Assembly (NCBI RefSeq): GCF_039383305.1
Contig: NZ_CP135009.1
Coordinates: 240,001 to 272,000, forward strand
DNA length: 32,000 bases
Reading direction: 5' to 3'
Source of the DNA: Candidatus Saccharimonadota bacterium
GTDB taxonomy: Bacteria > Pseudomonadota > Gammaproteobacteria > Enterobacterales > Enterobacteriaceae
Part shown: piece by piece, positions 2,178 to 23,089 of the stretch
How the letters are laid out: the number at the start of each line of letters is the position of its first letter
Numbering within the stretch: position 1 is the first letter of the stretch
Position numbers and translations under genes: made by a program
The notes under the pieces: generated by a model
Databases searched by the model: none
Seen by the model: the letters and a program-made list of their open reading frames with translations, nothing else
Told to the model about the DNA's origin: nothing

Positions 2178-3212
2178 ATGAATAATATTATTCAAGATTC
2201 AAAAAAATATCTTAAAGAAAATAAAATTTTATCTCAAAGTATTAATTTTTCTAAAATATCTAACATTATTTTTTCTGGATATTTATCACATTTAACTCCA
2301 GATATTTTTAAATTAAAAAAATATATTTTATATACACAAAAATGTAATATTTTTCAAGAATTTTCTAATAATATACATAAAAATATTATTTTTAATACAT
2401 ATAGAATAAAAAAAAAACTTAAAAAATGTGAAAATTTAATCTTTTTTTGGTCTAAAAATAAAAAAGAAATAATTTTTGAATTATCGTATTTATTTTCAAA
2501 ATTAAAAAAAAATTGTAAAATTTATGTGACAGGTTCTAAAAAAAATGGTATTCGAAGTCTTCCAAAAATTTTTTTAAAATTTATAAATTTTAAAAAAATA
2601 GATTCAAAATCACATTATTTATTATATTACGGAAGAATAAAAAATCCTATACAATTTTTTCTAAAAGATTTTTTTAAAATACATTATTGGAAAAATTTAA
2701 AAATTTTACATTTACCAGGTGTTTTTGGATATAAAAAAATAGATGAAGGTAGCCTTTTCTTAATATCTACATTTAATAAAAATATTAAAGGAAAAATTTT
2801 AGATCTTGGATCTGGATCTGGAATTTTAAGTGTAGCATTATTTCAGATTAATAAAAACCTTAAATTACATTTAAGTGATTTTTCAAAAAATTCTCTTATT
2901 TCAAGTCAAAAAACTTTATTAATGAATAAAATTCCAGGAAAAATTTATACTAGTAATATTTTTTTAAATATTTTTAAAAAATTTAATTTAATTATTTCAA
3001 ATCCTCCTATTCATAAAAATTTAAAATTAAACTATATAGTTCTTTTTAACATTATTACTAATTCTAAAAATTTTTTAAAAAAAAATGGAGAACTCAGAAT
3101 AATTGTTAATTCTTTTGTATCTTGTAAATTTTTATTAAAAAAAATTTTTAAAAATTGTAATCTATTAAAAAAAAATAAAAAATATAAAATTTACCAATCA
3201 TATAAAAAATAA
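2178..3212 (+). CDS. rsmC: 16S rRNA (guanine1207-N2)-methyltransferase RsmC
   Basis: 344 aa against 343 aa in E. coli. Collinear motifs are LIFFWSKNKKE (LIYYWPKNKPE), VTGSKKNGIRS (VVGENRSGVRS), LPGVFG, the SAM site LDLGSGSGILS, the catalytic IISNPPIH (NPPFH) and NGELRIIVNSF. Confidence 0.85.
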   Translation: MNNIIQDSKKYLKENKILSQSINFSKISNIIFSGYLSHLTPDIFKLKKYILYTQKCNIFQEFSNNIHKNIIFNTYRIKKKLKKCENLIFFWSKNKKEIIFELSYLFSKLKKNCKIYVTGSKKNGIRSLPKIFLKFINFKKIDSKSHYLLYYGRIKNPIQFFLKDFFKIHYWKNLKILHLPGVFGYKKIDEGSLFLISTFNKNIKGKILDLGSGSGILSVALFQINKNLKLHLSDFSKNSLISSQKTLLMNKIPGKIYTSNIFLNIFKKFNLIISNPPIHKNLKLNYIVLFNIITNSKNFLKKNGELRIIVNSFVSCKFLLKKIFKNCNLLKKNKKYKIYQSYKK

Positions 3213-3220
3213 AAAATATA

Positions 3221-3307
3221 TACCCGAAGCGGGACTTGAACCCGCAAGACTATTTATAAGTCGAGGGATTTTAAGTCCCTTGTGTCTACCAATTTCACCA
3301 TCCGGGC
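3221..3307 (-). tRNA. leuZ: tRNA-Leu (anticodon UAA), class II with long variable arm, no encoded CCA
   Basis: The reverse complement is GCCCGGATGGTGAAATTGGTAGACACAAGGGACTTAAAATCCCTCGACTTATAAATAGTCTTGCGGGTTCAAGTCCCGCTTCGGGTA. It folds as a cloverleaf with anticodon loop CTTAAAA and is close to E. coli leuZ. It is followed by TATATT, not CCA. Confidence 0.93.
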
Positions 3308-3323
3308 AAAAAAATTTTTTAAT

Positions 3324-3394
3324 AAGCGCATCCCGGAATTGAACCGGGTTATACGGATTTGCAATCCGATGCATAACCAATCTGCCAACGCGCT
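3324..3394 (-). tRNA. cysT: tRNA-Cys (anticodon GCA), no encoded CCA
   Basis: The reverse complement is AGCGCGTTGGCAGATTGGTTATGCATCGGATTGCAAATCCGTATAACCCGGTTCAATTCCGGGATGCGCTT. The acceptor stem AGCGCGT/ATGCGCT pairs and the anticodon loop is TTGCAAA. cysT-leuZ adjacency matches E. coli. Confidence 0.93.
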
Positions 3395-3448
3395 TTTTAT
3401 AAACTTATGATTTTAAAAAACTATTTTTTATAATAATTTTTTTTATTT

Positions 3449-3533
3449 AGGAGGAAGAGAGATTTGAACTCTCGAATAATTTCTTATTGGCGGTTTTCAA
3501 GACCGCTGCCTTAAACCACTCAGCCATTCCTCC
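3449..3533 (-). tRNA. serT: tRNA-Ser (anticodon UGA), class II, no encoded CCA
   Basis: The reverse complement is GGAGGAATGGCTGAGTGGTTTAAGGCAGCGGTCTTGAAAACCGCCAATAAGAAATTATTCGAGAGTTCAAATCTCTCTTCCTCCT. It has anticodon loop CTTGAAA, variable arm AATAA/TTATT and T-arm GAGAG-TTCAAAT-CTCTC. Confidence 0.93.
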
Positions 3534-11641: not shown

Positions 11642-12681
11642 ATGAAAACTCTGTTAAGATATTTTTTATTATGTAATATTTTTATAAATATGATATTAAT
11701 AAATTTTGCATTTGCTTCAGAAAATACAATCAAGAATTTAACTAACATTTCAGGAGCTTATACTATTCCATTAATTGGATATGGTTTAATGGTAGGATTA
11801 CCTAATAGCGGCGATCAAATTCCATATTCAAATTTTACTTTACAGACTATGTTAAATCTTTTTAAAAAAATGGGAATTGATGTTAAAAATACAAAAAATA
11901 TTCAAACAAAAAATATTGCATCAGTAATGGTTACCGCTGAATTACCTGCTTTTAATTATATTGGTCAAAAAATTCCTATTTATGTTTCTTCTATTGGTAA
12001 TTCGCAAAATTTACAAGATGGTACTTTATTAATGACTCCTTTAAAAAATTCCAATGGTATACGCTATGGAACCGCTCAAGGACATTGTAATTTAAAAATA
12101 GAACACTTAACAAATATAAATTTATTAAATAATCAAAATTTTAAAAATAATATTAAAATTAAAAATGGGGGTATTGTTGAAAAAACTTTTCAAAATGTTA
12201 TAGAACATAATGGGCATATAAAATTACAATTAAAATCTAAAAATTTTTATATGGCTCAAAAAATTAGTGATATAATTAATAAAAAATATCCTAAAATTTC
12301 TTTTCCTTTAAATGAAAGATCTATACAAATAAAAGTACCTCATAATAAAAGAACGCAATCACGTTTATTAGCAAATATACTACATTTAAAAATTAATACT
12401 AAAAAAAAAAAAAAAATATAATTTTTTTAAATTTAAAAAAAAATAAATTTTTCTTAAATCATGAAATTTATATTAAAAATTGTAAATTTTTAAAACATAA
12501 TGTTTTTTTAAAAATTAAAAATTTTAAAAAAAAAAAACAACAAAATATATATAAAAAAACTAAATTATCCCATATACTTACCGCATTTAATTTTTTAGGA
12601 ATTAAATCATCTAAAATTTTATCTATTCTAAAATCCTTAAAAAATAAAAAAGCGATTATTGCAACTATAAAAGTGATATAA
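11642..12681 (+). pseudogene. flgI: Flagellar P-ring protein FlgI, interrupted by a frameshift in a 16-A tract (12401-12416). One extra A or two fewer gives an intact protein of about 346 aa
   Basis: The N-terminal 258 codons (11642-12415) align with E. coli FlgI through ...RLLANILHLKINT (RFLADIQNMQVNV). The annotated frame then stops at 12419-12421. The frame offset by one base is stop-free from the tract to 12681. It encodes NIIFLNLKKNKFFLNHEIYIKNCKFLKHNVFLKI...[39 protein letters not shown], matching E. coli [32 protein letters not shown]...[39 protein letters not shown]. Confidence 0.9.
12401..12416 (+). repeat. A16 homopolymer containing the flgI frameshift (candidate transcriptional slippage site)
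   Basis: Sixteen consecutive A residues counted directly. The reading frame changes across this tract. Confidence 0.95.
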
Positions 12682-12972
12682 ATGAAAACATTAACATATG
12701 AAGATTTCAATACAATACAAAAAATAAAAAATTTTTTACCACAAAAAAATGATCAATTAAAAAATTTAAAAGAAATTTCTTCACAAATTCAAACTTTATT
12801 TATAAACATATTTTTAAATAGTGTAAAAAATTCTAATATAAATTTAAATCCTCAAATAAATTTAGATACTACTAGTAAATTTTATAAAGATCTATATATG
12901 AATTATCTTTCAAATAAATTTAATCAAAAAGATATAGGTTTTTTGCAATTAATAAAACAACAAATTTTATAA
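12682..12972 (+). CDS. flgJ: FlgJ reduced to the N-terminal rod-binding (rod cap) domain, with no muramidase domain
   Basis: 96 aa against 313 aa in E. coli. LKEISSQIQTLFINIFLNSVKNS...SKFYKDLYMNYLSNKFNQKDIGFLQLIKQQI aligns with the E. coli FlgJ N-terminus ...VARQVEGMFVQMMLKSMRDA...TRLYTSMYDQQIAQQMTAGKGLGLAEMLVKQM. Its ATG directly abuts the stop of the flgI downstream frame (TAAATG). Confidence 0.75.
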   Translation: MKTLTYEDFNTIQKIKNFLPQKNDQLKNLKEISSQIQTLFINIFLNSVKNSNINLNPQINLDTTSKFYKDLYMNYLSNKFNQKDIGFLQLIKQQIL

Positions 12973-13102
12973 AAAATTTTTTTATTAAAATTTTTTTAAT
13001 AAACAAGATAATTTTTTATAATTTTAAAAATTCATTATTTTAAAATATAACTATAAAAAACTTTTAAAACTTTTTCTATTTTATGAAGATAAAAAATAAA
13101 TT

Positions 13103-14043
13103 ATGATAAAAAAAGATTATAAAATTTTTATAAAAAAAGATACAAGTAATCAAAGAATTGATAATTTTTTATTTACAAAATTTAAAACACTACCTAAAAG
13201 TTTAATTTATAAAAACCTAAGATTAGGAAAAATTTTAATTAACACAAAAAAAAAAAAACCATCTTATAAATTAAAAAATCATGATGAAATATTATTAAAA
13301 TCTTTAAAAATCACACCATTTAAAAAAAAAAAATATTATTTCATAAAAATTTAAAAATAAAAATTTTAAAAAACATTTTATATGAAGATTCTTCTTTAAT
13401 AATTTTAAATAAAACTTCTGGAATTTCTGTACATGGAGGTAGCGGAATTAATGCTGGAATTATAGAAATTTTACGAATTATTAGAGTGGATATTTTTTTT
13501 TTAGAATTAGTACATCGATTAGATAAAGATACATCTGGAATATTATTATTAGCAAAAAAAAAATCTGTCTTAAGAAATTTACATCAACAATTACGAGAAA
13601 AAAAAATTAAAAAGTATTATATAGCTTTAGTGCATGGATTATTTAAAACTCAAAAAATCATTACAAATTTTCCAATTTTAAAAAAAAAAAATAAATTTAA
13701 TCTTATGTCAATACATAAAAATGGAAAACCTTCTAAAACTATTTTTACAATTAAAAAAATTTTTTTAAATTCTACCTTAGTAAGAATACACCCTATAACA
13801 GGCAGAACTCATCAAATACGTATTCATGCTTCTAAAATTGGACATCCAATACTTTATGATTCAAAATACGGAAATAATAATTTAAATTTAAAAATTAATA
13901 AAATTTTACAAAAAAAAAGACTTTTTTTACATGCATATCAAATCTTTTTTTTACATCCTAAAAATAATAAAAAAATGTGTATAAAAGCCCCTTTAGATCA
14001 AAGATTTGAAAACGCTATTAAAATTCTTTCAAAAAATAACTAA
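13103..14043 (+). pseudogene. rluC: 23S rRNA pseudouridine synthase RluC, interrupted by a frameshift in a 12-A tract (13322-13333). One extra A gives an intact protein of about 313 aa
   Basis: The N-terminal S4 domain (QRIDNFLFTKFKTLPKSLIYKNLRLGKILINTKKKKPSYKL) is in one frame and stops at 13352-13354. The offset frame is open from 13324. It encodes ...ILFHKNLKIKILKNILYEDSSLIILNKTSGISVHGGSGINAGIIEILR...LELVHRLDKDTSGILLLAKKK...GRTHQIRIH, matching E. coli RluC ...ILYEDDHILVLNKPSGTAVHGGSG...FLELVHRLDRDTSGVLLVAKKR...GRTHQIRVH. The DEI-to-ILYED spacing is 28 residues, the same as in E. coli, if one A is added. Confidence 0.9.
13322..13333 (+). repeat. A12 homopolymer containing the rluC frameshift (candidate transcriptional slippage site)
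   Basis: Twelve consecutive A residues counted directly. The frame changes across the tract, and the downstream frame has a TAA at 13321-13323 immediately before it. Confidence 0.95.
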
Positions 14044-14147
14044 AAATACTTAAAATATTAAAATTTTTTTTAAAAAAAAATTTTCTAATATAATTTTTTT
14101 TATAATTAAAATATAAAAATTTTTTAAAAAAATATTCAGGAATGTAT

Positions 14148-14315
14148 ATGGCAGTTCAAAAAAGTAAACCTAGTAGATCAAAACGTAATATGAGAAGATC
14201 TCACGATTTAATTATTCAAAACACAATTTCGATAGATAAAATTTCTGGAGAAACACATATTCGTCATCATATGACAAAAAAAGGATATTACAAAGGTAAA
14301 AAATTTTTTTTATAA
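14148..14315 (+). CDS. rpmF: 50S ribosomal protein L32 (absent from the ORF track because it is 55 aa)
   Basis: [55 protein letters not shown] compares with E. coli [57 protein letters not shown]. AGGA lies upstream of the ATG. Confidence 0.95.
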
Positions 14316-14352
14316 AAAACAATTCTTCTTAAAATCAATTACAAATTAATAA

Positions 14353-14386
14353 AATACAGTGATTTAAAATTTTTAAACACTGTATT
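14353..14386 (+). terminator. Hairpin downstream of rpmF (AATACAGTG ... CACTGTATT)
   Basis: A 9-bp perfect inverted repeat containing G/C. The 16-nt spacer can pair further (TTTAA/TTAAA). There is no clean U-tract, since ATATATAA follows. Confidence 0.45.
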
Positions 14387-14441
14387 ATATATAATATAAA
14401 TTTCACTTAAATTTATTCAAAACTTTTAAAATTATAAAAAT

Positions 14442-16529: not shown

Positions 16530-17162
16530 ATGAAAAAAGGAAAATTTATTGTTTTAGAGGGATTAGAAGGCGCCGGAAAAACAAGTGCCTGTAAATATAT
16601 ACAAAATTTTTTATATAATTTCGGAATTAAAAAAACTTTATTAATCAGAGAACCTGGTAGTACTTTTTTATCTGAAAAAATACGAAAATTTATAAAATTT
16701 AATCCAAAAAATGAAATTTTAAATTATAAAACAATAGTTTTATTACTTTATGCATCACGCTTACATTTAACTGATACCATTATTAAACCAACTTTAAAAA
16801 AAGGTATTTGGGTAATTAGTGATCGTTATGAATTATCTACTTTTGCCTATCAAGGGCAAAATTCACAAAAAAGAATAAATTTTATTAAAAAAATTAGTTC
16901 TTTAATTTTAAAAAAATTTTATCCTAATTTAACGATATATTTAGATGTTTTACCTCATATAGGTTTAAAAAGAATTAAAAAAAGAGGGATTTTAGATAAT
17001 ATTGAAAAAAATAATATAAATTTTTTTCTAAAAGTTCAAAAAACTTATTTAAAATACTTTAAAAAAAAAGAAAATATTTTTATTAATGCTAATTTATCAC
17101 AAAATATGGTACAAAAAAATTTAAAACATATTTTATTAAAATGGTTAAAAAAAAATATATGA
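16530..17162 (+). CDS. tmk: Thymidylate kinase
   Basis: GKFIVLEGLEGAGKTS (P-loop), ...REPGST..., and DRYELSTFAYQG. The product is 210 aa. Confidence 0.93.
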   Translation: MKKGKFIVLEGLEGAGKTSACKYIQNFLYNFGIKKTLLIREPGSTFLSEKIRKFIKFNPKNEILNYKTIVLLLYASRLHLTDTIIKPTLKKGIWVISDRYELSTFAYQGQNSQKRINFIKKISSLILKKFYPNLTIYLDVLPHIGLKRIKKRGILDNIEKNNINFFLKVQKTYLKYFKKKENIFINANLSQNMVQKNLKHILLKWLKKNI

Positions 17163-18148
17163 AATTTCCTATTTCTTGGTTAAATAAATATTATGTTCAA
17201 ATTATTACTTTATTTATACAAAAAAAATTGCACCCCATTCTTTTATTTAAATCTACATATAATATTGGCATTCCAAAATTAATTTATGAATTAAGTTGTT
17301 TTATTTTATGCATAAAAAAAAAAAATTTTAATTATTGTAACGTTTGTTCTTCTTGTATTTTCATGAAATCTAAAAAACATCCTGATTTTTATATCATAGA
17401 AGAAAAGAAAAAGAAAAATATTGGTATTGATTTTATTCGTGATATAATTATAAAAATATATTCTACTGCACAACAAAGTAATGAAAAAATTTTATGGTTT
17501 ACAAATATTTTAAAATTAACTAAAGAAGCTATAAATACATTATTAAAAACTTTTGAAGAACCACCTAAAAATACATTTTTTTTTCTATATACTTCCAACA
17601 CTGAAAATATTCAAAAAACTTTATTAAGTAGAATGATTATATATAATATATCAGGAATTAAAGAAAAAAATGCATTATTATGGTTAAAAAAAAAAAATAA
17701 AAAAAAAAATTTTTCTCAAAAAAATCTAATAACTATTTTACGTTTATATAATTCTTCACCTTTTTCAGCAAATTTTTTTTTAAATAACATAATTTTTGAA
17801 CAACGTATTAAAATCATAAAAATTTTTAAAAATTATTTATTCTATAAAAAAAATTTATTATTAATTAATGCTTTTAAATATATTTACAATCCAGACGTAA
17901 TATTTTGGATTTGTTTCATTTTACTAGATGCTATAAAATTAATTAGTAAAAAAAAAATAAAAATTCAAAATATAGACCAAATTTTATTTTTAAAAAAAAT
18001 TGCAAAAAAATACTCATATCGGATTTTATATAAGATTTTAACTTCATGGTTAAAATGTAATTATCACATACATAATATTCCAGGAATAAATAAAGAAATT
18101 TTTATTATAGAACAAGTTTTATATACAACACTTCTTATCAAAAATTAA
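17159..18148 (+). CDS. holB: DNA polymerase III subunit delta-prime
   Basis: It follows tmk with an ATGA overlap. MKFPISWLNKYY compares with E. coli MRWYPWLRPDFE. It has the Zn-module remnant CNVCSSCIFMKSKKHPDFYII (CGHCRGCQLMQAGTHPDYYTL), LLKTFEEPP and TLLSR. The track start at 17141 is an upstream in-frame ATG inside tmk. Confidence 0.85.
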   Translation: MKFPISWLNKYYVQIITLFIQKKLHPILLFKSTYNIGIPKLIYELSCFILCIKKKNFNYCNVCSSCIFMKSKKHPDFYIIEEKKKKNIGIDFIRDIIIKIYSTAQQSNEKILWFTNILKLTKEAINTLLKTFEEPPKNTFFFLYTSNTENIQKTLLSRMIIYNISGIKEKNALLWLKKKNKKKNFSQKNLITILRLYNSSPFSANFFLNNIIFEQRIKIIKIFKNYLFYKKNLLLINAFKYIYNPDVIFWICFILLDAIKLISKKKIKIQNIDQILFLKKIAKKYSYRILYKILTSWLKCNYHIHNIPGINKEIFIIEQVLYTTLLIKN

Positions 18149-19096: not shown

Positions 19097-19450
19097 ATGA
19101 AAATTGAAAAAATTTTTTCTCAAATAGTTTTAAATAAAAAAAAAAAAAAAATAATTTATCAAGATAAAATTGTAACTGCATTTAAAGATAAAAATCCTCA
19201 AGCACCAATACACATTTTAGTAATTCCAAATATTTTAATTCCTACAGCAAATGATATTACTAAAAAAAACAAACACTTTTTTACACATATGTTTTATGCA
19301 TCCTTAAAAATTACTAAAAAATTAAATATTCATAAAACAGGATATCGATTAATTTTCAATTGTAATGCACATGCAGGACAAGAAATCAAATATATACATT
19401 TACATATTTTAGGAGGAAAAAATTTAGGACCTATAATATGTAAATCTTAA
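19097..19450 (+). CDS. hinT: HIT-family purine nucleoside phosphoramidase HinT (YcfF)
   Basis: From the ATG at 19097, [50 protein letters not shown] compares with E. coli [50 protein letters not shown]. The histidine triad is YIHLHILGG. The 39-residue N-terminal extension in the track has no homology. Confidence 0.9.
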   Translation: [117 protein letters not shown]

Positions 19451-21232: not shown

Positions 21233-23089
21233 ATGTTAGTAAATATTAAAAACGGAAAAATAAAATTTAATAAAATTCCAATTTTAAATAATATTAATCT
21301 TATAATACATCAAAAAGAAAAAATTTGTGTTTTAGGAAATAATGGTTCCGGGAAATCAACATTATTAAAAATTATTAAAAAAAAAATATTATTAGATGCA
21401 GGTTCTTTATTTATTAAAAAAGATCTTAAAATAGCATATTTATCACAAAATTTACCTAAACGTTCCAAAGAAACTATTTATGAATTTTTATGTAAAAACA
21501 TTAATAAAAAATATCGAGAACTTATAAATTTTCAAAATTTTTCAATAAAAAAAAAATCTAATTTAAAAAATTTTAATAATTTTTTTAATATTAATGAAAA
21601 AAAAATCTGGAAAAAATATTCAAAAATTAAAAAAATTATGAAAATTTTGCAATTAAAAAAAAATACACTTTTAAATTCTTTATCAGGAGGTTGGTTAAAA
21701 AAAGTTAATTTAGCAAAAATATTAATTCAAAAATCAGATTTATTATTACTAGATGAACCTACTAATCATTTAGATATTACTAGTATTGAATGGTTAGAAA
21801 AATATTTATTAAAATATAAAGGTGCAATTTTATTTACTTCTCATGATCGTGAATTTATTCATCATATTACACATAAAATTATTTATATTAACTTTAAAAC
21901 TTTAAACTTTTGGAAAATAAAAAATTTTAACGATTTTTTTAAAAAACTTAAACTTCAAGAAAATATTAATAATATTAAAAATTTAAAATTTCAAAAAAAA
22001 ATTAAAAAAGAAGAAATATGGTCAAAAAAAGGTATAAAAGCTAGAAGAACAAGAAATGAAGGACGTCTTAAAAAATTTATAGAATTAAAAAATGAATATG
22101 ATCAAATTGAAAAAACACAAGAAAGTTATCCAATTTTAATCAATTCTTTAGAAAGATCTAATAAAATTATTTTTAATCTTAAAAATATTTCTTTAATAAG
22201 AAATCAAAAATACTTAATAAAAAATTTTTCAGAAAAAATAATATATGGAGATAAAATTTCTTTAATAGGCTCGAATGGATGTGGAAAAAGTAGTTTTTTA
22301 AAATTACTATTAAAAAAAATTAATTTAACATCTGGTAAAATCAAGATTGGAAAAAATATTAAAATTTCTTATTTTGATCAGGAACGAAAAAATCTTAATA
22401 AAAAAAAAACTATTTTAGAAAATTTTTCTACAAATTTAAATAATATAAAATTTAAAAATCAAACATATAATATTTTTAGTTTATTAAAAAAATTTAATTT
22501 TTCTACTGAAAAAATCTATTCATTAGTACAAACTTTATCTGGTGGCGAAATTAATCGATTATTATTTTTAAAAATATTTTTAAAACCTAGTCATGTATTA
22601 ATATTAGATGAACCAACTAATGATTTAGATTTTACAACATTATCATTTTTAGAAAAAATCTTAAAATCTTATCCGGGAACAATTTTTCTAGTTAGTCATG
22701 ACCGAAATTTTATAAAAAATATTTCAAAAAAATTTTGGTATTTCCAAAAAAACGGTAAAATTACAATCGATTTAAACTATTATCCCAATATTTATAAAAA
22801 ATCAATAAATACTAAAAAAAAAATTAAAAAAAAAAATAAAAAAAAAAAAAATCTTAAAGACTCACAAAAATTAACATATAAATTAAAAAAAGAACTAAAG
22901 AATTTACCTCAAGAATTAGAAGAAATTGAAGCGCAAATACAAAAAATTGAAAAAAAAATCATTCAAAAAAATTTTTATCAACAGAATCCTATCGTAATTA
23001 AAAAAATCTTTTTAAAATTATCAAATAAAAAAAAAAAAATAAAAAAAAAATTTTTAAGATGGGAATTTCTAGAAAACTTAAAAAAATAA
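21233..23089 (+). CDS. uup: ABC-F family ATPase Uup
   Basis: It has two ABC cassettes: GNNGSGKSTLLK / LSGGWLKKVNLAKIL...LLLDEPTNHLD and GSNGCGKSSFLK / LSGGEINRLLFLKIF...LILDEPTNDLD. It ends in a Lys-rich coiled-coil tail. The product is 618 aa against 635 aa for E. coli Uup. Confidence 0.9.
   Translation: MLVNIKNGKIKFNKIPILNNINLIIHQKEKICVLGNNGSGKSTLLKIIKKKILLDAGSLFIKKDLKIAYLSQNLPKRSKETIYEFLCKNINKKYRELINFQNFSIKKKSNLKNFNNFFNINEKKIWKKYSKIKKIMKILQLKKNTLLNSLSGGWLKKVNLAKILIQKSDLLLLDEPTNHLDITSIEWLEKYLLKYKGAILFTSHDREFIHHITHKIIYINFKTLNFWKIKNFNDFFKKLKLQENINNIKNLKFQKKIKKEEIWSKKGIKARRTRNEGRLKKFIELKNEYDQIEKTQESYPILINSLERSNKIIFNLKNISLIRNQKYLIKNFSEKIIYGDKISLIGSNGCGKSSFLKLLLKKINLTSGKIKIGKNIKISYFDQERKNLNKKKTILENFSTNLNNIKFKNQTYNIFSLLKKFNFSTEKIYSLVQTLSGGEINRLLFLKIFLKPSHVLILDEPTNDLDFTTLSFLEKILKSYPGTIFLVSHDRNFIKNISKKFWYFQKNGKITIDLNYYPNIYKKSINTKKKIKKKNKKKKNLKDSQKLTYKLKKELKNLPQELEEIEAQIQKIEKKIIQKNFYQQNPIVIKKIFLKLSNKKKKIKKKFLRWEFLENLKK

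What the first reader, a model, noticed from the sequence alone, without database searches (positions are those of the whole stretch)
13103..14043. rluC is split by a frameshift in an A12 tract that separates the S4 domain from the catalytic domain
**What the sequence shows**
- The 83-aa ORF (13103-13354) is the S4 RNA-binding domain of RluC.
- The catalytic domain (ILYEDSSLIILNKTSGISVHGGSG, HRLDKDTSG with the catalytic Asp, GRTHQIRIH) is in the frame offset by one base. That frame opens right at the A12 tract (13322-13333), with a TAA at 13321-13323 just before it.
- With one extra A the junction reads ...ITPFKKKKILFHKNLKIKILKNILYED. The spacing between the conserved DE(V/I) and ILYED motifs is then exactly 28 residues, as in E. 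coli RluC.

**Interpretation**
- The GTG start at 13486 in the ORF track would remove motif I, so it is not a plausible independent start.
- This is the second gene within 1 kb needing the same correction (+1 A). That argues for a systematic mechanism, either slippage-dependent expression or a systematic homopolymer undercall, rather than random decay.
Basis: partly seen in the sequence, partly recalled or inferred. Interest (0 to 1): 0.75.

Follow-up and report, generated by a model that had tools for sequence, protein, structure and literature searches.

The report
Frameshifted rluC in an aphid symbiont
The rRNA-modifying gene rluC of the Buchnera symbiont of the aphid Nippolachnus piri is split by the loss of one base in a run of 12 A's; this is a new example of a well-known endosymbiont pattern, in which polymerase or ribosome slippage on the A-run can still give some full-length protein.

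Summary
**Observation:** confirmed in every detail.
- The 83-aa ORF at 13103-13354 is the S4 domain.
- The catalytic frame is open from the TAA at 13321-13323 to 14043.
- The two frames meet in an A12 tract at 13322-13333.
- One added A gives a 313-aa protein that matches RluC end to end.

**Source:** the window is Buchnera aphidicola of Nippolachnus piri (CP135006, Illumina, PCR-amplified libraries).

**Is the tract length real?** Probably.
- A12 is the same in five assemblies from two strains.
- About 20 other tracts of A12 or longer in the window sit in frame, so a systematic undercall is not supported.
- An isolated error is not excluded. In two related species, paired assemblies differ by one A in rluC tracts.

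**Age and state of the gene:**
- The frameshift is specific to the N. piri lineage. The sister species has A4TA8 in frame at this site.
- It lies in the flexible interdomain linker.
- The gene shows no decay. It keeps 68 of 69 invariant residues, its branch is not longer than its sister's, and its dN/dS resembles that of fabD and fabG.

**Best reading:** a recent, real one-base deletion. Some full-length RluC is still made by +1 transcriptional slippage or -1 ribosome sliding, as described by Tamas et al. 2008. Early pseudogenisation is the main rival.

**Verdict:** a new member of a known kind; modest interest.

The parts
13103..13354 (+). rluC 5' ORF (83 aa). It holds the S4 RNA-binding domain and the start of the linker, then 6 out-of-frame residues (YYFIKI) and a premature TAA at 13352-13354.
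   Evidence: ORF list. Pfam S4 at residues 17-63, E=2.4e-6. The same 83-aa product is found on 5 contigs: 2 NCBI genomes and 3 Logan assemblies.
13322..13333 (+). A12 tract at the frameshift site, read as four AAA codons in the upstream frame. It lies in the flexible linker between the S4 and catalytic domains.
   Evidence: Sequence. The length is the same in L007, L008, L009 and L012. The sister species has A4TA8 in frame at this site, so N. piri is exactly 1 nt short. The linker is the lowest-confidence block of the predicted structure, with pLDDT 66 for residues 71-80.
13324..14043 (+). rluC catalytic frame, offset by one base. It is open from just after the TAA at 13321-13323 to the stop at 14041-14043 and contains ILYED, VHGGSG, HRLDKDTSG (catalytic Asp) and GRTHQIR.
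   Evidence: Translation. Pfam PseudoU_synth_2. PDB RluC 1XPI/1V9K at E=1e-60. All 68 columns invariant across the 16 RluC sequences are kept.
13246..13258 (+). A13 tract within the S4 domain, in frame here (TKKKKP). The orthologous tract is A15 (in frame) or A14 (frameshifted) in two T. salignus Buchnera assemblies.
13680..13691 (+). A12 tract within the catalytic domain, in frame (LKKKNK). It is a further slippage-prone site that would lower the yield of correct transcripts.
13486..14043 (+). Mechanical 185-aa ORF from a GTG. It lacks the N-terminal strands of the catalytic domain and is not a plausible gene start. NCBI instead annotates a 213-aa product from an ATT at 13402.
12401..12416 (+). 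Context: A16 tract that truncates the neighbouring flgI at 259 aa. Adding one A restores a 346-aa FlgI.

Best explanation
In the Buchnera aphidicola lineage of Nippolachnus piri, the lysine-rich flexible linker of rluC became an uninterrupted A-run and then lost one A by replication slippage, going from A13 to A12.

As a result the S4 domain and the catalytic domain sit in different frames. The gene is otherwise intact, so the deletion is evolutionarily recent.

Both RNA polymerase and ribosomes slip on runs of this length. A minority of expression events should therefore restore the frame. These events are a +1 A insertion in the mRNA or a -1 slide of the ribosome on AAA AAA AAA AAA, and both give the same ...FKKKKILFH... 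junction. They would yield full-length RluC at a reduced dose.

- **Shown:** the anatomy, the identity of the gene, the reproducibility of A12, the lineage specificity, and the lack of decay.
- **Inferred:** that slippage occurs here and that the residual RluC matters.
For: - **Gene identity and junction.** See the observation check.
- **Source.** The window is 100% identical to CP135006.1, Buchnera of N. piri sample 09.
- **Reproducibility.** A12 is present in both NCBI genomes of N. piri and in three Logan assemblies from other runs. One of these (L007) is a different strain, with 8 SNPs and 1 intergenic indel over 6.5 kb. No full-length N. piri-type RluC exists among 5.8 billion proteins.
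- **No general undercall.** About 20 tracts of A12 or longer are in frame in the window.
- **Exact one-base deficit.** N. piri reads CCA TTT AAA AAA AAA AAA -TA TTA. T. salignus reads CCT ATT AAA ATA AAA AAA ATA TCG.
- **No decay.** The gene keeps 68 of 69 positions invariant in 15 other RluC. Mean identity to 14 outgroups is 51.8%, against 51.7% for the intact sister ortholog. dN/dS against T. salignus is 0.35, similar to fabD (0.32), acpP (0.38) and fabG (0.26). The corrected protein folds confidently as two domains, with mean pLDDT 89 and the linker lowest.
- **Literature.**
  - Frameshifted Buchnera and Blochmannia genes give mixed mRNA pools with about 30% full-length transcripts (Tamas et al. 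2008, as summarised in PMC3017870).
  - Single-base insertions in A/T runs rise exponentially with run length in Buchnera (PMC5574713).
  - E. coli ribosomes slide robustly on runs of A11 or longer (PMC4363877).
  - The RluC linker is flexible (PMC5449589).
Against: - There are no RNA or protein data for this organism.
- Traverse and Ochman saw no transcript-level frame restoration in Buchnera (PMC5574713).
- The frameshift is not conserved beyond N. piri. T. salignus and C. confinis are in frame at this tract, so there is no evidence that selection maintains it.
- Lack of decay is also what a very recent pseudogene or a sequencing error would show.
- Two further long tracts in the same gene (A13, A12) would push many transcripts out of frame again, so the yield may be only a few percent.
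- All available reads probably come from PCR-amplified Illumina libraries.
Confidence: 0.55

Rival explanations
1. Early-stage pseudogene. The one-base deletion is real and has effectively inactivated rluC. Any slipped product is too rare to matter, and the gene will decay, as dispensable genes do in shrinking Buchnera genomes.
For: - rluC deletion has no growth defect in E. coli (established knowledge, not tested here).
- The frameshift is restricted to one lineage.
- The neighbouring flgI is also truncated, and the flagellar cluster is eroding in related Buchnera.
- The divergence between the two N. piri strains that share the frameshift is only about 0.12%. That is too little time for secondary damage, so the intact frames do not argue against this reading.
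- Transcript-level restoration was not seen genome-wide in Buchnera (PMC5574713).
Against: - rluC is kept intact in nearly all Buchnera recovered, including other genomes of about 420-445 kb.
- There is no rate acceleration and no lost catalytic residue.
- An A12 run is above the lengths at which polymerase slippage and ribosome sliding are efficient, so some full-length protein is hard to avoid if the gene is transcribed.
Confidence: 0.28
2. Sequencing or assembly artefact. The true tract is A13, and PCR stutter in the Illumina libraries plus consensus calling shortened it by one.
For: - Libraries were PCR-amplified, assembled with MEGAHIT and NOVOPlasty, and polished with Pilon.
- From the same study, the T. 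salignus genome CP135003 has A14 where the older reference LN890285 has A15. This also breaks rluC.
- A draft C. strobi genome (LT669949) has A13 at the very same linker tract where the finished genome LR025085 has A14.
- In both pairs the discordant tract is the longest one in the region.
Against: - Five assemblies from at least two strains and three further runs, made with different assemblers, all give A12.
- Other tracts of A12, A13, A14 and A16 in the same window are in frame.
- The discordant tracts in the other species are A14 or longer.
- Homopolymer differences between the N. piri strains are resolved elsewhere, for example T8 against T9 at 14063.
Confidence: 0.12
3. Genuinely split gene. 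The S4 piece and the catalytic piece are made as two polypeptides. This could happen by termination at 13352-13354 followed by reinitiation at a near-cognate ATT (13363 or 13375), which would keep the whole catalytic domain.
For: - ATT codons in the catalytic frame lie 9-21 nt after the ORF1 stop and upstream of ILYED.
- The E. coli RluC catalytic module is a stable separate unit in crystal structures.
- NCBI annotates a separate product of 213 aa.
Against: - There is no ATG, GTG or TTG before 13486 in that frame.
- ATT initiates poorly (established knowledge).
- The S4 domain is regarded as the docking and specificity element of this enzyme class (PMC5449589).
- No relative shows a conserved two-gene arrangement.
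Confidence: 0.05

Closest known systems
Poly(A)-tract frameshifted genes of Buchnera and Blochmannia rescued by transcriptional slippage (Tamas et al. 2008 PNAS; Blochmannia vafer genes in PMC3017870)
   Same: - An AT-rich obligate insect endosymbiont.
- A single indel inside a coding-strand A-run of 10 or more.
- Both flanking frames intact, with no sign of accelerated evolution.
- The frameshift is shared by separate samples.
   Different: - Here there are no transcript or protein data.
- The frameshift is not shared between species.
- rluC is not, to my knowledge, among the published cases.
Programmed transcriptional slippage, such as Thermus thermophilus dnaX at A9 and IS-element transposase fusions (PMC1088944)
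   Same: An A-run in the sense strand at a junction between two reading frames. mRNAs of varying length fuse the two ORFs.
   Different: In those systems the site is conserved and both products have a function. Here the site is lineage-specific, and the short product (S4 alone) has no known role.
Ribosome sliding on lysine-encoding homopolymeric A stretches (Koutmou et al. 2015, PMC4363877)
   Same: Four consecutive in-frame AAA codons (A12) exceed the A11 threshold for robust sliding. A -1 slide gives exactly the restoring frame.
   Different: Sliding was described as a source of truncated products from in-frame genes, not as a way to rescue frameshifted genes.
Intact RluC of other Buchnera (T. 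salignus 69% identity; Cinara species 53-57%; Buchnera APS 52%)
   Same: Same domain order, the same synteny (flgH-flgI-rluC-rpmF-fabD-fabG-acpP) and a lysine-rich linker tract at the same position.
   Different: In those genomes the tract is in frame: A4TA8, A8, A10, A12 or A14.

Membership tests
RluC, 23S rRNA pseudouridine(955/2504/2580) synthase (NCBIfam NF008249) | N-terminal S4 domain followed by a RluA-type catalytic domain, matched over the full length of the model | tested here: met
   After +1 A, one stretch covers profile positions 11-316 of 317. Pfam finds S4 plus PseudoU_synth_2.
RluC, 23S rRNA pseudouridine(955/2504/2580) synthase (NCBIfam NF008249) | Score at or above the curated equivalog cut-off (378 bits) | tested here: not met
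   The score is 320.6 bits. RluC is still the best family by a wide margin: RluD scores 134 bits. A shortfall is expected for a fast-evolving genome with 19% GC. The RluA-subfamily cut-off of 192.7 is passed at 260.9 bits.
RluC, 23S rRNA pseudouridine(955/2504/2580) synthase (NCBIfam NF008249) | Catalytic Asp in the HRLDxxTSG motif, and the other invariant residues | tested here: met
   HRLDKDTSG is present. All 68 columns invariant in the 16-sequence alignment are kept, as are 68 of the 69 positions invariant in the other 15.
RluC, 23S rRNA pseudouridine(955/2504/2580) synthase (NCBIfam NF008249) | Orthology by best hits and conserved gene neighbourhood | tested here: met
   The top hits are annotated Buchnera RluC. 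The flgI-rluC-rpmF-fabD-fabG-acpP order is the same in six related loci.
RluC, 23S rRNA pseudouridine(955/2504/2580) synthase (NCBIfam NF008249) | Formation of pseudouridine at U955, U2504 and U2580 | not testable with these tools
   This needs pseudouridine mapping of Buchnera 23S rRNA.
Slippage-rescued poly(A) frameshift genes of endosymbionts (Tamas et al. 2008) | A single indel inside a homopolymeric A/T tract of about 9 or more, with the gene otherwise in frame | tested here: met
   A12 tract, exactly 1 nt short of the sister species, with no other stop or shift.
Slippage-rescued poly(A) frameshift genes of endosymbionts (Tamas et al. 2008) | The frameshift is reproducible in independent samples or populations | tested here: met
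   Two strains and five assemblies. The caveat is that all are probably PCR-amplified Illumina data.
Slippage-rescued poly(A) frameshift genes of endosymbionts (Tamas et al. 2008) | No accelerated evolution or degradation of the frameshifted gene | tested here: met
   The test is weak because the event may be very recent.
Slippage-rescued poly(A) frameshift genes of endosymbionts (Tamas et al. 2008) | The frameshift is conserved across species (the 'ancient frameshift' subclass) | tested here: not met
   T. salignus, C. confinis, C. tujafilina and the finished C. strobi genome are all in frame at this tract.
Slippage-rescued poly(A) frameshift genes of endosymbionts (Tamas et al. 2008) | A mixed mRNA pool containing frame-restored transcripts, and full-length protein | not testable with these tools
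   This needs cDNA length profiling and proteomics.

The most novel reading that the evidence does not exclude
The poly(A) tracts of rluC may be recurrent, tolerated frameshift sites in the Buchnera of Lachninae aphids. In this reading, tract length varies within species and acts as a heritable dimmer on RluC dosage, with slippage supplying a low basal level.

Three lineages show a -1 state:
- N. piri: A12 at the linker tract.
- A C. strobi assembly: A13 against A14 at the same linker tract.
- T. salignus 08: A14 against A15 at the S4 tract.
Probability: 0.12. Interest if true: 0.5.

Novelty: new member of a known kind. Interest (0 to 1): 0.25.

Why it matters
**Annotation.** In the public records the gene appears as a 213-aa 'RluA family' protein plus an unannotated 83-aa S4 piece. 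It should instead be flagged as a single rluC with a poly(A) frameshift.

**Biology.** This adds an rRNA-modification enzyme to the list of endosymbiont genes whose expression may depend on polymerase or ribosome infidelity.
- Together with the discordant tract lengths in T. salignus and C. strobi, it gives a compact, testable locus. The question is whether such frameshifts are tolerated, polymorphic or artefactual.
- It does not reveal a new mechanism.

Tried and rejected
- **Look-up of P0001.** The closest intact ortholog was not on record. Its longer isoform P0122 worked.
- **Primary papers.** Tamas et al. 2008 and Wernegreen et al. 2010 are not held. Their content is cited second-hand from PMC3017870 and PMC5574713.
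- **Promoter and terminator scan of 12400-14400.** It found fewer promoter-like sites than shuffled sequence and no terminators, so it is uninformative in this composition.
- **Rfam.** It found only three tRNAs, far from the locus.
- **Other candidate frameshift tracts.** The tracts at 3167-3175 and 17147-17155 flagged by my scan are ordinary gene ends or gene junctions. For example, tmk (16530-17162) abuts the next ORF (17141-18148).
- **Literature on rluC loss in Lachninae Buchnera.** The search found nothing.
- **Programmed recoding.** I considered this and rejected it because the frameshift is not conserved in any relative.

Full report
**1. What is in the sequence**

The window has 19.2% GC. 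Around the finding the gene order is flgH, flgI, a short flgJ-like ORF, rluC, rpmF, fabD, fabG, acpP, tmk.

The 83-aa ORF at 13103-13354 ends six codons after a run of exactly 12 A's at 13322-13333. The frame one base behind is closed by the TAA at 13321-13323. It then stays open for 239 codons up to the stop at 14041-14043. The other frames of the gene carry 23 and 36 stops.

Inserting one A gives a 313-aa protein with the junction ...ITPFKKKKILFHKNLKIKILKNILYED....
- Pfam finds an S4 domain (residues 17-63) and PseudoU_synth_2 (99-244).
- The best NCBIfam model is the RluC equivalog. It matches in one stretch over profile positions 11-316 of 317, at 320.6 bits. This is below the curated 378 but far above RluD at 134.
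- The catalytic part matches the E. coli RluC crystal structures at E=1e-60.
- The GTG at 13486 would give a product that starts inside the catalytic domain.

A 236-codon open stretch has a chance probability of about 1e-9 or less in this composition.

**2. Where it comes from**

The 213-aa NCBI product that corresponds to the catalytic frame leads to CP135006.1. That record is 100% identical to the window over 5.6 kb.

Lu et al. 2024 (PMC11193766) identify it as Buchnera aphidicola of Nippolachnus piri, sample 09 (417,640 bp). A second sample, CP135009, also exists. Sequencing was Illumina NovaSeq 2x150 on PCR-amplified libraries, with assembly by MEGAHIT, NOVOPlasty and Geneious and polishing by Pilon. 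That paper does not mention frameshifts or pseudogenes.

**3. Is A12 real?**

*For a real A12:*
- The same truncated 83-aa ORF is on five contigs: two NCBI genomes and three Logan assemblies of other runs.
- All loci I could read have A12 at the site. They also have identical lengths at the in-frame A13, A12, T10 and A10 tracts of the gene.
- One Logan contig (L007) is a different strain, with 8 SNPs and one intergenic T8/T9 indel in 6.5 kb. The frameshift therefore predates that small divergence.
- A search of 5.8 billion proteins with the corrected sequence found no full-length N. piri-type RluC.
- Within the window, about 20 tracts of A12 to A16 lie in frame inside long ORFs. Only two, the flgI A16 and this A12, break a frame. 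That rules out a pervasive undercall.

*Against:*
- The T. salignus genome from the same study (CP135003) has A14 where the older reference LN890285 has A15. This breaks rluC in its S4 domain.
- A draft C. strobi genome (LT669949) has A13 at the very same linker tract where the finished genome (LR025085) has A14.
- In both pairs the discordant tract is the longest in the region compared.

These discordances may be real polymorphisms at hypermutable tracts, or they may be errors. I put the artefact reading for N. piri at about 0.12.

**4. History of the site**

A DNA alignment of nine rluC loci shows that the tract is orthologous across the Buchnera of Lachninae aphids:
- T. salignus: A4TA8
- C. 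tujafilina: A8
- an unnamed Cinara-type symbiont (SRR21069242): A10
- C. confinis: A12, in frame
- C. strobi: A14

N. piri reads CCA TTT AAA AAA AAA AAA -TA TTA. T. salignus reads CCT ATT AAA ATA AAA AAA ATA TCG. With one A added, the two proteins are collinear (PFKKKKI against PIKIKKI).

The simplest path is loss of the interrupting T, which gives A13, followed by a one-base contraction.

The tract lies in the interdomain linker. In E. coli this linker is flexible and carries three glutamates (PMC5449589). In the AlphaFold model of the corrected protein (mean pLDDT 89), residues 71-80 are the least confident block, at pLDDT 66. A weakly constrained linker under AT pressure is where a long lysine-coding A-run would be expected to build up.

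**5. State of the gene**

- The corrected protein keeps 68 of the 69 positions that are invariant in 15 other RluC. The exception is P105T. Other sequences lose 0-2 such positions.
- Its mean identity to 14 outgroup RluC is 51.8%. The intact T. salignus ortholog has 51.7%.
- dN/dS against T. salignus is 0.35. fabD has 0.32, acpP 0.38 and fabG 0.26 (crude Nei-Gojobori estimates, useful only for comparing genes).

There is no sign of decay. This fits a recent event, continued function, or an artefact, and it cannot separate them. The shared ancestry of the two N. piri strains is too shallow (about 0.12% divergence) for secondary damage to be expected.

**6. Mechanism**

The needed correction is +1 nt in the mRNA or, equivalently, a -1 shift of the ribosome. 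In the upstream frame the tract is four AAA codons. A -1 slide leaves tRNA-Lys paired with AAA and continues with ATA TTA TTT. The result is the same FKKKKILFH junction as an A13 transcript (sequence).

What the literature says:
- Frameshifted Buchnera and Blochmannia genes yield mixed mRNA pools with roughly 30% full-length transcripts, and they yield full-length protein (Tamas et al. 2008, as summarised in PMC3017870).
- In Buchnera, single-base insertions dominate in A/T runs and rise exponentially with run length (PMC5574713).
- Runs of about nine are already used for programmed slippage in other bacteria (PMC1088944).
- E. coli ribosomes slide robustly on runs of A11 or longer (PMC4363877).

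Two cautions apply. Traverse and Ochman saw no frame-restoring transcript in their Buchnera data. The two other long tracts in this gene (A13 and A12, both in frame) would throw a share of transcripts out of frame again. The net yield of correct RluC is therefore probably only a few to about ten percent. This figure is my inference.

**7.

flgI does need +1 at its A16 tract to give a 346-aa protein collinear with the 356-aa T. salignus FlgI. However, in three Cinara Buchnera the FlgI ORF is 254-255 aa. It stops at the very alignment position where N. piri shifts, and there is no room left for the C-terminal part. The truncated form may therefore be the working or tolerated form.

Two same-direction events are not statistically meaningful. 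The many in-frame tracts argue against a systematic undercall. The evidence does not favour a special mechanism over ordinary mutation at hypermutable tracts in two dispensable genes.

**8. Verdict**

This is a further instance of a known class: a poly(A) frameshift in an endosymbiont gene that may be rescued by slippage. It occurs in a gene and genome where it had not been noted, and the public annotation obscures it.

My probabilities:
- 0.55: a real frameshift with residual full-length expression by slippage
- 0.28: an effectively dead, recent pseudogene
- 0.12: an artefact
- 0.05: a two-polypeptide arrangement

Interest is modest.

Noticed in passing
window 11642-12700 (flgI, A16 at 12401-12416); L015 532-1296, L016 153-920, L017 99-866: The N. 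piri flgI frameshift truncates FlgI at 259 aa. That is the alignment position where FlgI of three Cinara Buchnera ends (254-255 aa, with the downstream part deleted). T. salignus keeps a 356-aa FlgI. This looks like parallel truncation at one poly(A) hotspot, and the short form may be the tolerated one.
   Followed up: partly
L011 (CP135003, T. salignus 08) vs L013 (LN890285), rluC first tract, L013 about 2651: Two T. salignus Buchnera assemblies differ by one A (A14 against A15) in the S4-domain tract of rluC. In CP135003 the gene is therefore frameshifted at a different tract from N. piri. NCBI annotates only a 244-aa fragment there.
   Followed up: partly
L010 (LT669949) vs L014 (LR025085), about 2725 in L014: Two C. 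strobi-type Buchnera assemblies differ by one A (A13 against A14) at the same linker tract as in N. piri. The draft splits rluC into pieces of 81 and 156 aa. Three SNPs also cluster just upstream of the rluC start.
   Followed up: partly
window 12401 and about 17686-17715: Logan contigs break at long A-runs. L008 starts exactly at the flgI A16 tract. All three contigs end near the compound tract A12-C-A11 at 17686-17709. This suggests read-level heterogeneity or k-mer ambiguity at these tracts.
   Followed up: no
whole window: Homopolymers of 10 or more inside long ORFs are almost all A on the coding strand (40 A against 4 T). Several are very long but in frame. Examples are A16 at 19136-19151 in a 156-aa ORF, and a cluster of A10, A11, A14, A13 and A10 at 22814-23050 near the end of the 618-aa ORF.
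   Followed up: no
window 13402-14043: The public annotation (WP_343126716; XAJ79458.1, XAJ79839.1) calls a 213-aa 'RluA family pseudouridine synthase' from a non-canonical ATT start. It lacks the first strands of the catalytic domain. The S4 piece is left as a separate 83-aa call.
   Followed up: yes
window 12682-12972: A 96-aa ORF between flgI and rluC has counterparts of 108 aa in T. salignus and 103 aa in SRR21069242, with no Pfam hit on record. From its position it is probably a flgJ remnant.
   Followed up: no
window 3221-3533 (- strand): Three adjacent tRNA genes are the only Rfam matches in the window.
   Followed up: no
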